Source: a virus (lineage: Duplodnaviria; Caudoviricetes). From it: 64,000 bases of DNA. The DNA is taken from positions 1 through 64,000 of the IMG/VR virus record IMGVR_UViG_2934390892_000001; one strand, 5' to 3'. Both the position numbers and the translations under genes were made by a program. Positions 4,969-6,614 of the stretch are shown here, piece after piece. Numbering within the stretch: the first letter of the stretch is position 1; the number at the start of each line of letters is the position of its first letter. A model generated the notes under the pieces. It made no database searches and was not told where the DNA came from. It saw only the letters and a program-made list of their open reading frames with translations.

Positions 4969-6614
4969 GCACCCCACAGACTTCCGCCCCAGCTAGCGGG
5001 ATCACGACGCCCAGGGAGTTCTCGTTGGGGCGGAACAGCATTTCCCGGTCGACCCCAGATCTGTCGACGCCCGTCGCTGAAGCGTTGGCCGGGTCAGGCT
5101 CCCTCGACGGCCAGGCCCCCGCCGACACCCAAGACGCGAGCGCTGTCGAGGGCAACTCTTCCCCGCAGGCCATATCTGATCCGGATCCCACATGGTCCGC
5201 GCCTGCGGGGACCTCATCTACGGCAGCGGCCAAAAGGAGCGCGTCTCCCAATGACTCCTCGCTGCTGCCGTTCAAGGCCAGCCAGGCCGCCCCAAACTGC
5301 TCCGACGCCCATCGTGAGTGCGGTGGCCTGGCTGAAGACCTCCCCGGCGACCAGGGTGACCCCGATTCCCATTGTTCAAGCGTCGCCGGGGACTCAGCTC
5401 AGCCGACAGCCATAGATCTGCCACTTCCCAAAGCAGCCTCGCTGTCGGCTGCCAATTCCCCCCGGACGGCCAATACACGCTCGTCGGCCATACACGACAC
5501 GCCGTCCGGGGATCAGCTTCCGCGAGAGGCCAGCGTAAGCTCGGCGCCCACATGGGCAACGCCTCTCGCGGATCAGACTCCGCCCCTGGCCATAGATCGT
5601 GCGCTCTCCAAAGCCGATTTGCCAGGGGTGGACGAAGCAGGGTCGTCGGTTCCGGCCGTACGCGAAGCGATGCCCATACGGCTACCGCCGGAACTGGCAG
5701 ACCCGCTCCTCGCTCTCGCCGCCGATGTCCTCGACGACCTGGAGTCGGTGTGGATCGCCAACACCAACCGCCTCCGGCAGCTCACCCGCGACGTTGAAGA
5801 CTCGGACGGGGAGGAGCGCGGCTTCGGCCTGACGCTCGACCACCCCGACGTCGCCCGCCTCGCCGCCCTCGTTGAGGCGCTGGACAAGGCGCAGCAGGAC
5901 GCAACGAAGAACCTCACGAAGAGGCTCAAGTCCCACCCGCTCGCGCCGTGGCTGAAGGCCCAGAAGGGCGTCGGCGACAAGCAGGCCGCGCGCCTGCTCG
6001 CGTCGATCGGCGACCCGTACATGCGGCCCGAGATGCGGTTCGAGGACGGCACCGTCGAGCCTGCACGCCCCCGCCGCGTAAGTGAGCTGTGGGCGTACTG
6101 CGGCTACCACGTCATGAACTTCCCCGCTGGTCAGCTCACGACCGACACCCATCTGGTCAGCGCCAGCGGGGGTAAGACCGGCCACCTCGACCAGAGTAGA
6201 AGCGATACCCATGCGTCGGGCGTCGGGGTGGCCCCCAAGCGGGCTCGGGGCCAGCGCGCGAACTGGTCCAGCACGGCAAAGATGCGCGCCTACCTCATCG
6301 CCGAATCCACGATGAAGCAGCTCAAGCGCACCTGCCCGGCCGACGAGGAACGCGGTTACGCCACCCACACGGACGGGTGCGAGTGCTCCCGCTACCGCAA
6401 GGTCTACGACGCCGCCCGCGAGAAGTACGTGGATGCCATCCACCACGCGGAGTGCGTCCGCTGCGGCCCGAAGGGCAAGCCCGCCCCGGTCGGCTCCGAC
6501 CTGTCGCGCAAGCACAAGCAGGCCCGCGCCCTCCGCATCGTCTCCAAGGAACTCCTGAAGGACCTGTGGCGCGAAGCGCGGCGCATCCACCTCGGAGAGG
6601 AGGAGACGACGTGA
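4965..6614 (+). CDS. Nop-domain / IS110 C-terminal-like RNA-binding protein (TasA-like, no nuclease domain); true start uncertain (4965 or ~5628/5670)
   Basis: Coiled coil, then WLKAQKGVGDKQAARLLASIGD, SELWAYCGY, RGQRANWS, YRKVYD and HKQARALRIVSKELLKDLW; no DEDD RuvC or HNH motifs. Confidence 0.8.
   Translation: MSTPQTSAPASGITTPREFSLGRNSISRSTPDLSTPVAEALAGSGSLDGQAPADTQDASAVEGNSSPQAISDPDPTWSAPAGTSSTAAAKRSASPNDSSLLPFKASQAAPNCSDAHRECGGLAEDLPGDQGDPDSHCSSVAGDSAQPTAIDLPLPKAASLSAANSPRTANTRSSAIHDTPSGDQLPREASVSSAPTWATPLADQTPPLAIDRALSKADLPGVDEAGSSVPAVREAMPIRLPPELADPLLALAADVLDDLESVWIANTNRLRQLTRDVEDSDGEERGFGLTLDHPDVARLAALVEALDKAQQDATKNLTKRLKSHPLAPWLKAQKGVGDKQAARLLASIGDPYMRPEMRFEDGTVEPARPRRVSELWAYCGYHVMNFPAGQLTTDTHLVSASGGKTGHLDQSRSDTHASGVGVAPKRARGQRANWSSTAKMRAYLIAESTMKQLKRTCPADEERGYATHTDGCECSRYRKVYDAAREKYVDAIHHAECVRCGPKGKPAPVGSDLSRKHKQARALRIVSKELLKDLWREARRIHLGEEETT
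4982..5697 (+). ncRNA. Stem-loop TIGR-like guide array, 12 units
   Basis: 12 tandem hairpins spaced 58-66 nt apart; stems of ~10-13 bp differ in sequence and each closes a 30-nt loop with consensus CCA-N9-CG-N4-CCA-N9-CG. Confidence 0.85.
6120..6233 (+). ncRNA. Two additional TIGR-like guide hairpins embedded in the Tas-like CDS
   Basis: ccccgctgg-TCA-gctcacgac-CG-acac-CCA-tctggtcag-CG-ccagcgggg and gccacctcga-CCA-gagtagaag-CG-atac-CCA-tgcgtcggg-CG-tcggggtggc. Confidence 0.8.

What the first reader, a model, noticed from the sequence alone, without database searches (positions are those of the whole stretch)
4982..5697. Array of 12 hairpins, each carrying two 9-nt variable spacers: stem-loop TIGR-like guide array
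Seen: 12 tandem hairpins 58-66 nt apart. Stem sequences all differ but stay paired, and each loop is 30 nt with consensus CCA-[9]-CG-N4-CCA-[9]-CG. Spacer pairs A/B: gcgggatca/gggagttct, cagatctgt/tcgctgaag, ggcccccgc/agacgcgag, tatctgatc/catggtccg, aaaggagcg/atgactcct, aaactgctc/tcgtgagtg, gggtgaccc/ttgttcaag, tagatctgc/aagcagcct, atacacgct/tacacgaca, gcgtaagct/catgggcaa, tagatcgtg/aagccgatt, tacgcgaag/tacggctac. Repeat finders would miss it because structure, not sequence, is conserved. Known: TIGR-Tas systems use short guide RNAs with two 9-nt spacers bound by Nop-domain proteins related to IS110 and box C/D snoRNP proteins. Inference: this is a programmable guide repertoire for the adjacent Nop-like protein.
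Basis: partly seen in the sequence, partly recalled or inferred. Interest (0 to 1): 0.95.

Follow-up and report, generated by a model that had tools for sequence, protein, structure and literature searches.

The report
Prophage stem-loop TIGR-TasA guide array
The twelve hairpins are real two-part guide RNAs of a TIGR-TasA system, an RNA-guided DNA-binding system first described in 2025, sitting in the early operon of an actinobacterial prophage; it is a well-preserved new example of a known kind, and its DNA targets remain unknown.

Summary
Observation confirmed. Two more units lie inside the downstream gene at 6121-6233.

The stems covary strongly. The downstream protein (5670-6614) matches solved TasR and TasH by profile and fold and lacks their nuclease part, so it is a TasA.

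Related viral loci carry the same units. A motif scan found them in 68 of 79 loci, 392 on the tas strand and 6 on the opposite strand.

The upstream array is stop-free in the tas frame, both here and in 24 of 28 related loci.

The locus sits after cro- and xis-like genes of a provirus.

No target was found in the 87-kb record or in 1.93 Mb of related phage DNA. Expression could not be tested.

Stem-loop TIGR arrays, guides inside tas genes and repression by TasA are already published (PMC12045711; bioRxiv 10.64898/2026.09.09.750476). This scan has also reported such systems on other DNA. Verdict: a new member of a known kind.

The parts
4982..5698 (+). Upstream stem-loop TIGR array, 12 units (u1-u12). 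Each unit has a 10-13 bp stem and a 30-nt loop, CA-N9(spacer A)-CG-N4-CCA-N9(spacer B)-C. Linkers between units are 6-12 nt.
6121..6172 (+). Unit u13, inside the tasA coding sequence, in frame
   Evidence: 49.5 bits. It encodes part of the disordered insertion at residues 150-190 of the model.
6180..6233 (+). Unit u14, inside the tasA coding sequence, in frame
   Evidence: (47.5 bits),
5670..6614 (+). Conserved core of tasA (314 aa from ATG 5670; a GTG at 5628 is another possible start). It consists of a coiled coil plus a Nop-type C-terminal domain and has no nuclease domain.
4965..6614 (+). 549-codon open frame that runs from a GTG overlapping the stop of the upstream gene, through the whole array, into tasA. 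It may be a translated N-terminal extension.
   Evidence: 0 stops in this frame over 4982-5698 against 3-7 in the other five frames; third-position GC is 0.70 in the array part and 0.90 in the core; the same holds in 24 of 28 related loci.
4366..4968 (+). Upstream gene of unknown function (phrog_4604). Its TGA stop overlaps the GTG at 4965.
3520..3549 (+). Nearest promoter-like site on the + strand (TTGACT-18-AATAAT), at the divergent switch region. It is the candidate start of the early rightward transcript that would carry the array. This is inferred.
   Evidence: 2 promoter-like sites found against 0.3 +/- 0.6 in shuffles, and no terminator-like site on the + strand in 2300-7800.
3520..4157 (+). 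Cro-like HTH gene (within 3520-3831) and excisionase-like HTH_17 gene (3828-4157), upstream in the same orientation
1..1554 (-). Integrase at the left end of the provirus
   Evidence: phrog_1, 5.4e-41; IMG/VR class 'provirus', 95% complete

Best explanation
This is a stem-loop TIGR-TasA system of a temperate actinobacterial phage. It comprises 14 tandem guide-RNA units (12 upstream of tasA and 2 inside it) and a nuclease-free Tas protein.

**Shown here**
- The RNA-level hairpin architecture, with covarying stems, two 9-nt hypervariable segments per loop and fixed flanking nucleotides.
- The Tas identity of the protein and the absence of a nuclease domain.
- The co-occurrence of units and tas genes across the family.
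- An open tas-frame across the upstream array.

**Inferred from the published relatives**
- The early rightward transcript, which follows the cro- and xis-like genes, carries the array and tasA together.
- The hairpins are cut out near the stem base, probably by a host RNase.
- A TasA dimer binds each hairpin RNA.
- Spacers A and B pair with opposite strands of adjacent 9-bp half-sites, giving an 18-bp site with no PAM.
- Because there is no nuclease, binding blocks transcription or replication instead of cutting.

The 14 guides have no site in the phage's own 87-kb record, so the targets are most likely outside it, in host genes or in competing mobile elements.
For: **Array**
- 12 + 2 units with perfect stems and 30-nt loops.
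- 94.6% of stem cells are paired against 62.7% in shuffles. 48 cells carry double-sided changes against 13.1. The slid controls give 29-53% paired.
- The same holds for 144 distinct family units: 95.3% paired, 458 cells with double-sided changes against 114.
- Spacers are 55% GC, stems 79% and the genome 67%.
- Across 368 distinct family units, the spacer columns are close to uniform in composition. The flanking C(-1), C29 and G30, which were not used to select units, are 91-98% conserved.

**Protein**
- PDB profile hits are 9mty_A (TasR) at 3.8e-17 and TasH at 3.6e-07. The alignment covers TasR residues 104-296 of 331, which is everything except its N-terminal part.
- The top ten Foldseek matches are all TasR or TasH chains, with probability 1.00 and TMq 0.50-0.57.
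- No Pfam nuclease domain is found in either the 314-aa or the 549-aa form.

**Family**
- 411 covariance-model hits in 79 loci.
- 392 units on the tas strand against 6 on the other strand, in 68 of 79 loci: 296 upstream, 52 intragenic and 44 downstream.
- 382 distinct spacer pairs among 406 units.

**Literature**
- Guides occur inside tas genes, TasA represses transcription, and processing happens near a CUU motif at the stem base (10.64898/2026.09.09.750476, sections 5, 11 and 13 read in full).
- A PlTasA dimer has been solved on a stem-loop tigRNA (10.64898/2026.08.11.744272, passages).
- In this window, CTT sits at the 5' stem base in 4 of 14 units and CTC in 4 more.
Against: **Expression and processing.** There is no direct evidence that this array is transcribed or processed, or that this TasA binds it.

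**Targets.** No target was found.
- No bipartite site with <= 2 mismatches, in either order and with a gap of 0-2, exists in the 87-kb record.
- In 11 sibling loci the counts at <= 3 mismatches are 7 and 6. The same-strand control patterns give 8 and 10.
- With 551 guide pairs searched against 1.93 Mb of related DNA there were 0 exact matches. One-mismatch matches numbered 11 and 8, against 11 and 17 for the controls.

**Processing motif.** The CUU motif is present in only 4 of 14 units.

**Pfam.** Pfam does not recognise a Nop domain in the protein, and the matches to cellular Nop5/Nop56/58 structures are weak (E 0.3-3, TMq 0.21-0.25).

**Promoter.** The assignment rests on a sigma-70 consensus scan that is not tuned to actinobacteria.
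Confidence: 0.87

Rival explanations
1. The region is first of all protein-coding. On this view it is a repetitive, disordered N-terminal domain of a 549-aa protein, and the hairpins are a by-product of the repeats rather than guide RNAs.
For: The tas frame is open over the whole array: 0 stops against 3-7 in the other five frames. The same is true in 24 of 28 related loci, against 4 and 2 of 28 for the other two frames. GTG 4965 overlaps the stop of the upstream gene. A cultured relative has its 'transposase' CDS annotated through six units.
Against: - Third-position GC is 0.70 in the array and 0.90 in the tasA core, so the array shows no codon bias.
- Unit periods are 58-66 nt and not multiples of 3, and units sit in two different phases.
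- What is conserved is base pairing, with compensatory changes, and fixed loop nucleotides. The peptide is not conserved: the N-terminal extensions do not align among homologs.
- 44 family units lie beyond the end of the tas match, 700 nt or more from its start.
- Translation and a guide function are not mutually exclusive.
Confidence: 0.03
2. An IS110-family element. On this view the protein is a bridge-RNA-guided recombinase or transposase and the hairpins are its non-coding RNA.
For: PHROG 4285 and 2199 are named 'transposase'. RefSeq records of cultured phages name the homolog 'transposase'. Foldseek lists ISCro4 and IS621 recombinases at E 0.014-0.06.
Against: - TasR and TasH match far better (E 4.6e-07 to 5.2e-05, TMq 0.50-0.57, against 0.35-0.37 for the recombinases).
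- The protein starts directly with the coiled coil. It aligns only to the part of TasR after the N-terminal nuclease region, and no catalytic domain is found.
- There are 14 tandem two-spacer units, not one bridge RNA.
- The gene sits at a fixed place in phage early operons.
Confidence: 0.03
3. A box C/D-like RNP that guides RNA modification or RNA binding rather than DNA binding.
For: The Tas fold is related to Nop5/Nop56/58 (weak matches). The unit layout, a guide segment between short conserved motifs repeated twice, is like that of box C/D RNAs (PMC12045711, passages).
Against: No fibrillarin is encoded in the 87-kb record (0 matches; the control genomes gave matches). Solved relatives bind DNA (the titles of the TasR and TasH entries). 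TasR showed no activity on RNA substrates (PMC12045711, section 7 passage).
Confidence: 0.02
4. A decayed or idle array. The hairpins would be kept only as structural or regulatory elements of the tasA mRNA (attenuators or stabilisers), with no guiding role.
For: No target was found anywhere I could search, and there is no expression evidence.
Against: All 14 units have intact stems and loop geometry. The spacers are hypervariable while the scaffold is conserved across the family, which is the pattern expected of sequences selected for their information content. The searchable DNA was small (about 2 Mb) and did not include the host genome.
Confidence: 0.04

Closest known systems
Stem-loop TIGR-TasA systems: PlTasA from a Peromyscus leucopus gut contig (Faure et al. 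2025, PMC12045711; Guan et al. 2026 preprint 10.64898/2026.08.11.744272) and BlTasA of Bifidobacterium longum (Xu et al. 2026 preprint 10.64898/2026.09.09.750476)
   Same: - A nuclease-free Tas protein built from a coiled coil and a Nop-type domain.
- Tandem hairpins with variable palindromic stems.
- Two short spacers per loop, flanked by conserved nucleotides.
- Units upstream of the tas gene and inside it, without breaking the frame (as in BlTasA).
- A phage or prophage setting and an actinobacterial host lineage (as in BlTasA).
   Different: - It is a different clade. I could not compare it with the PlTasA or BlTasA sequences, which no tool returned.
- The loop here is strictly 30 nt, with a 4-nt linker between the two CCA-N9-CG halves.
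- CUU at the stem base is present in only 4 of 14 units.
- Nothing has been tested experimentally for this locus.
- Whether the locus is already listed in the papers' supplementary tables or in TIGRSafari could not be checked, because supplements are closed.
Dual-repeat TIGR-TasR and TIGR-TasH systems (TaTasR, PDB 9mty; SpTasH, PDB 9vzx, 9w04 and others)
   Same: These are the best sequence and fold matches of the protein. Each guide has two 9-nt spacers.
   Different: Those systems have conserved edge and loop repeats that give 36-nt tigRNAs, and an N-terminal RuvC or HNH nuclease. Here variable stems replace the edge repeats and there is no nuclease.
IS110-family bridge-RNA recombinases (IS621, ISCro4)
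   Same: A distantly related RNA-binding domain (Foldseek E about 0.01-0.06), and a bipartite RNA guide.
   Different: Those proteins have a catalytic recombinase and a single bridge RNA with two loops. Here there is no catalytic domain and there are 14 tandem units.
Archaeal and eukaryotic box C/D RNPs (Nop5, Nop56/58 with fibrillarin and L7Ae)
   Same: A Nop-type fold, and guide segments placed between short conserved boxes, twice per RNA.
   Different: The structural match is weak (TMq 0.21-0.25). No fibrillarin is encoded. Relatives of this protein target DNA, not RNA.

Membership tests
TIGR-Tas | Effector with the Tas-type Nop domain (coiled coil plus C-terminal RNA-binding domain) | tested here: met
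   The profile hits TasR 9mty_A at 3.8e-17 and TasH at 3.6e-07. The top ten Foldseek matches are TasR or TasH chains, with probability 1.00 and TMq 0.50-0.57. The model has pLDDT 84.9 and pTM 0.80.
TIGR-Tas | A tandem array next to the tas gene, in which each unit carries two short (8-12 nt) variable spacers flanked by conserved box-C/D-position nucleotides | tested here: met
   There are 14 units, each with two 9-nt variable segments between conserved CCA and CG. The same layout appears in 368 distinct family units. Calling these nucleotides box C and box D follows the papers' wording; I could not map them one to one.
Stem-loop subtype of TIGR arrays | Variable but consistently palindromic sequences form a stem in place of conserved edge repeats | tested here: met
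   Stems are 10-13 bp. 11 of 12 pair positions show double-sided changes, and 94.6% of cells are paired against 62.7% in shuffles. The family-wide figure is 95.3%.
TasA subtype | No RuvC or HNH nuclease domain | tested here: met
   Pfam gives no significant hit (best: EABR, E 0.08-0.19) in either the 314-aa or the 549-aa form. The alignment to TasR covers only residues 104-296 of 331. The model begins with the coiled coil.
TIGR-Tas | The array is transcribed and processed into unit-length tigRNAs that the Tas protein binds | not testable with these tools
   No RNA data for this DNA could be examined. This needs small-RNA sequencing or RIP-seq.
TIGR-Tas | The two spacers pair with opposite strands of adjacent half-sites of a DNA target | tested here: inconclusive
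   No site above the control level was found in the 87-kb record or in 1.93 Mb of related loci. The host genome and the large collections were not searched.
TIGR-Tas | The Tas protein acts as a dimer through its coiled coil | not tested
   A two-helix coiled coil is predicted (H12-39 and H59-88).
IS110-family recombinase | An N-terminal DEDD RuvC-like catalytic domain and a C-terminal catalytic serine domain, on a mobile element with defined ends | tested here: not met
   No catalytic domain was found. The Foldseek match to IS621 and ISCro4 has TMq of only 0.35-0.37. Element ends were not looked for.
Box C/D RNP | Nop5-type protein working with fibrillarin (and L7Ae) on canonical box C (RUGAUGA) and box D (CUGA) RNAs; the box consensus sequences are recalled, not taken from a call | tested here: not met
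   No fibrillarin is encoded in the record. Rfam finds no known RNA family in 4300-6800 at E <= 1. The loop motifs are CCA and CG, not full boxes.

The most novel reading that the evidence does not exclude
In this actinophage clade the upstream guide array is translated as well as processed. Each roughly 60-nt unit would then be both a tigRNA and a roughly 20-residue module of a disordered N-terminal tail of TasA.

Two consequences would follow. New spacers could be fixed only if they add no stop codon in the tas frame. And cutting guides out of the transcript would destroy the message for the long protein form, which gives a built-in trade-off, or feedback, between guide supply and effector supply.

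The stop-free frame is conserved (24 of 28 loci against 4 and 2 of 28 for the other frames). It shows no codon bias. The frame starts at a GTG overlapping the upstream stop codon.

Xu et al. already note in-frame intragenic arrays and disordered N-termini. The new part would therefore be proof of translation and of the coupling.
Probability: 0.4. Interest if true: 0.55.

Novelty: new member of a known kind. Interest (0 to 1): 0.33.

Why it matters
This locus adds a clean 14-guide example in a near-complete temperate phage. It has a defined regulatory setting: the early rightward operon, directly after cro- and xis-like genes.

Two points are useful beyond cataloguing.

1. The conserved open frame across upstream arrays gives a quantitative handle on the reported overlap between guides and tas coding sequence.
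2. The same system, annotated as 'transposase' or 'hypothetical protein', is present in cultured actinophages with tractable hosts. Gordonia phage BENtherdunthat has 11 units and Mycobacterium phage Euphoria has 4. The open question of what TasA guides target in nature could be tested directly there.

The natural targets of these guides remain unknown. The published work also names this as open (10.64898/2026.09.09.750476, Discussion).

Tried and rejected
**Self-targets.** I searched the whole 87-kb record for rc(A)+B and B+rc(A) on both strands with a gap of 0-2. There was nothing with <= 2 mismatches and there were 10 sites with 3 mismatches. No control was run in that call.

**Targets in sibling proviruses that lack the system.** L080 and L081 share a Sak4-like gene with the window at 85-93% protein identity but have no tas gene and no units on the + strand. 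Across the 11 loci L080-L090, the counts at <= 3 mismatches were 7 and 6, against 8 and 10 for the same-strand control patterns.

**Cross-targeting within the family.** 382 guide pairs were searched against the 79 loci and the record. Then 551 guide pairs were searched against 210 sources totalling 1.93 Mb. There were no exact matches, and the one-mismatch counts did not exceed the controls.

**Close relatives of the array.** I looked for relatives with more than 80% Tas identity to compare spacer turnover. The metagenome scan returned nothing closer than 49% over the full-length protein; two short C-terminal fragments reached 53-58%. L080 and L081 are mosaic and share only the Sak4-like region with the window.

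**Other blanks.**
- Rfam: no family matched in 4300-6800.
- A megablast of 3500-8500 against the phage records found no match.
- Public sequencing runs: no RNA holder is listed.
- A scan with the protein at 21696-23057 found no relative.

**Considered and dropped.**
- Terminators or REP-like palindromes. The loops have a fixed 30-nt geometry and co-occur with tas across the family.
- Scanning the large public collections with single 18-bp target patterns. Exact 18-mers with a 0-2 gap on both strands are expected by chance several times per pattern in tens of gigabases (my estimate, not a call).

**Supplements.** The supplementary tables of both TIGR papers, and the TIGRSafari resource, may already list this locus or clade. 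Supplements are closed, so I could not check.
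Full report
**1. Observation**

Reading 4700-6000 and extending stems outward from each loop gives twelve uninterrupted hairpins between 4982 and 5698 on the + strand. Stems are 10-13 bp and every loop is exactly 30 nt. Loop starts are 58-66 nt apart.

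The 746-nt stretch folds at -368 kcal/mol against -303 +/- 7.8 for shuffles (z = -8.4), and the predicted structure shows the twelve hairpins.

The loop reads CA-N9-CG-N4-CCA-N9-C. The C before the loop and the G after it form the closing pair.

A hairpin scan of the whole 87-kb record turned up two more units of the same geometry inside the downstream gene, at 6121-6172 and 6180-6233.

**2. RNA-level selection**

A gap-free alignment of the 14 units shows the following for the 12-pair stem:
- 94.6% of stem cells form standard pairs, against 62.7% after shuffling.
- 11 of 12 positions have changes on both sides.
- 48 cells carry double-sided changes, against 13.1 expected.
- Pairing drops to 29-53% when the 3' partner is slid by 1-3 columns.

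A covariance model built from the alignment scores the 14 units at 43.5-50.9 bits. The next best hit in the window scores 19.2 bits.

Spacers are 55% GC, stems 79% and the genome 67%. Rfam has no match in the region.

**3. The protein**

The conserved core runs from about 5670 to 6614 (314 aa). Pfam finds nothing significant. PHROG 4285, named 'transposase', matches at 3e-86.

The 5.8-billion-protein search gave 1865 hits with E <= 0.001 among the 8000 candidates scored. I aligned 32 of the 120 listed hits with the query.

That profile hits only two PDB sequences at E <= 1: TasR (9mty_A, 3.8e-17) and TasH (3.6e-07). The TasR alignment covers chain residues 104-296 of 331, which leaves out its N-terminal part. 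The paper places the RuvC nuclease of TasR in that N-terminal region (PMC12045711, section 4).

The AlphaFold model has pLDDT 84.9 and pTM 0.80. It shows a two-helix coiled coil followed by a mostly helical domain, with one disordered stretch at residues 150-190. That stretch is the part encoded by units u13 and u14.

Foldseek results:

| Matches | E-value | TMq |
|---|---|---|
| TasR and TasH chains (top ten) | 4.6e-07 to 5.2e-05 | 0.50-0.57 |
| IS621 and ISCro4 recombinases | 0.014-0.06 | 0.35-0.37 |
| Nop5/Nop56/58 | 0.3-3 | 0.21-0.25 |

The protein is therefore a nuclease-free Tas protein, a TasA.

**4. The family**

Seventy-nine related loci from IMG/VR give 411 model hits at E <= 0.01.

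A stricter motif-plus-stem scan finds 392 units on the tas strand and 6 on the other strand, in 68 of 79 loci. Of these, 296 lie upstream, 52 inside the gene and 44 downstream.

On 144 distinct family units, 95.3% of stem cells pair, with 458 double-sided changes against 114 expected.

Among 368 distinct units the spacer columns are near-uniform in composition. C(-1), C29 and G30, which were not used for selection, are 91-98% conserved. Of 406 units, 382 have distinct spacer pairs.

Twenty-six prophage copies lie in genomes of 25 Actinomycetota and one MAG labelled Pseudomonadota. The named ones include Actinomadura, Streptomyces, Kitasatospora, Mycobacterium, Gordonia and Parafrankia.

Ninety cultured phage records carry a homolog: 83 Mycobacterium, 5 Gordonia, 1 Rhodococcus and 1 Arthrobacter. 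It is annotated as hypothetical protein, transposase or DNA-binding protein. The model finds 11 units in the fetched 5.8-kb locus (L129) of Gordonia phage BENtherdunthat, 4 in that of Mycobacterium phage Euphoria (L128), 8 in the Actinomadura prophage locus and 6 in a Streptomyces prophage locus.

**5. Array and reading frame**

In the window the tas frame has no stop across 4982-5698. The other five frames have 3-7 stops. The open frame starts at GTG 4965, which overlaps the TGA of the upstream gene.

Third-position GC is 0.70 in the array part and 0.90 in the core, so the array shows no codon bias.

Of the 79 loci, 28 remained after I dropped exact duplicates and loci with fewer than three contiguous upstream units. 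In these 28, the tas frame spans the whole upstream array in 24. The other two frames do so in 4 and 2. Median open extensions are 129.5, 40.5 and 29 codons.

All 51 intragenic family units are in the same phase.

Xu et al. already report arrays within tas coding sequences 'without disrupting the reading frame', and disordered N-terminal regions in TasA (sections 5 and 6). My counts therefore quantify a known feature rather than reveal a new one.

**6. Context**

The record is an IMG/VR provirus estimated 95% complete. The gene order is:
- integrase (1-1554, - strand);
- a divergent promoter-like pair at 3376-3405 and 3520-3549;
- a cro-like HTH gene;
- an excisionase-like gene;
- a gene of unknown function;
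- the array and tasA;
- a Sak4-like gene, an HNH gene and an anti-repressor;
- much further on, terminase, portal and major head genes.

No terminator-like site lies on the + strand between the promoter-like site and tasA. Co-transcription with the early lytic operon is an inference.

In BENtherdunthat the homolog also follows cro and ant genes.

**7. Mechanism**

The mechanism is taken by homology from three papers.
- Faure et al. show that stem-loop arrays are processed into single hairpin units bound by TasA, and that the two spacers of tigRNAs pair with opposite DNA strands without a PAM.
- Xu et al. show repression by TasA and processing near a CUU motif at the stem base.
- Guan et al. 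solved a PlTasA dimer on a stem-loop tigRNA with DNA.

In this window, CTT sits at the 5' stem base in 4 of 14 units and CTC in 4 more.

**8. Targets**

I found none. See, with same-strand control patterns in the last two. The host genome was not available, and I did not type bipartite patterns into public scans.

**9. Verdict**

The observation and the interpretation both hold. The system belongs to a kind published in 2025-2026. This scan has already reported it on other DNA: 22 notes in at least 19 genomes.

It is a new member of a known kind. Interest is moderate to low, apart from the open question of natural targets and the possible dual use of the array as coding sequence.

**Papers and what I read of them**
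- PMC12045711: section 4 in full, and passages from sections 3, 5-10, 26, 44 and 49.
- 10.64898/2026.09.09.750476: abstract, and sections 5, 6, 11 and 13 in full.
- 10.64898/2026.08.11.744272: passages from the abstract and sections 5 and 9.
- All other titles: the search listing only.
- A search for 'TIGR-Tas' together with 'mycobacteriophage' returned only Faure et al., where the second word occurs in the reference list.

Noticed in passing
L128 (Mycobacterium phage Euphoria, NC_023726.1) 2119-2425; L129 (Gordonia phage BENtherdunthat, NC_047891.1) 984-2971: Cultured, well-studied actinophages carry the same TasA gene with hairpin guide units: 4 in Euphoria, in the gap before gp70, and 11 in BENtherdunthat. 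The gene is annotated 'transposase' or 'hypothetical protein'. In BENtherdunthat the annotated CDS (locus 2021-3295) runs through six units. 90 phage records hold a homolog. The only paper in the library that holds both 'TIGR-Tas' and 'mycobacteriophage' is Faure et al., and there the second word occurs in the reference list.
   Followed up: partly
L080 (IMGVR_UViG_2866783905_000002) and L081 (IMGVR_UViG_2895476258_000013): Sibling proviruses share the Sak4-like gene (85-93% protein identity). L081 also shares the portal (86%). In the parts fetched they have no tas gene and no units on the + strand. The early region is mosaic, so the TIGR-tasA module behaves as an accessory cassette.
   Followed up: partly
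window 5670-6614, residues H258, C262, C265, H282 of the 314-aa protein: An invariant His/Cys set (H-x3-C-x2-C ... H) in the C-terminal domain across 33 aligned homologs suggests a zinc site. A second Cys-rich insert (about residues 226-245) is present in only some homologs.
   Followed up: no
window 5411-5440 and 5591-5620 (units 8 and 11): Two guides resemble each other in both spacers. The A spacers share their first 6 letters and the B spacers their first 4. This points either to a recent unit duplication or to two related target sites. Units 4 and 10 also share the first 5 letters of spacer B.
   Followed up: no
window 3376-3549: Divergent promoter-like pair between a leftward gene (2818-3342, no family hit of note) and the cro-like gene. 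This is probably the lysis-lysogeny switch. 2 sites were found against 0.3 expected.
   Followed up: no
window 4994-6221 (the spacers of all 14 units): The spacers (55% GC) are much less GC-rich than the genome (67%), and the family-wide spacer columns are close to 25% for each base. If spacers mirror their targets, the targets are not typical high-GC coding sequence of the host lineage.
   Followed up: no
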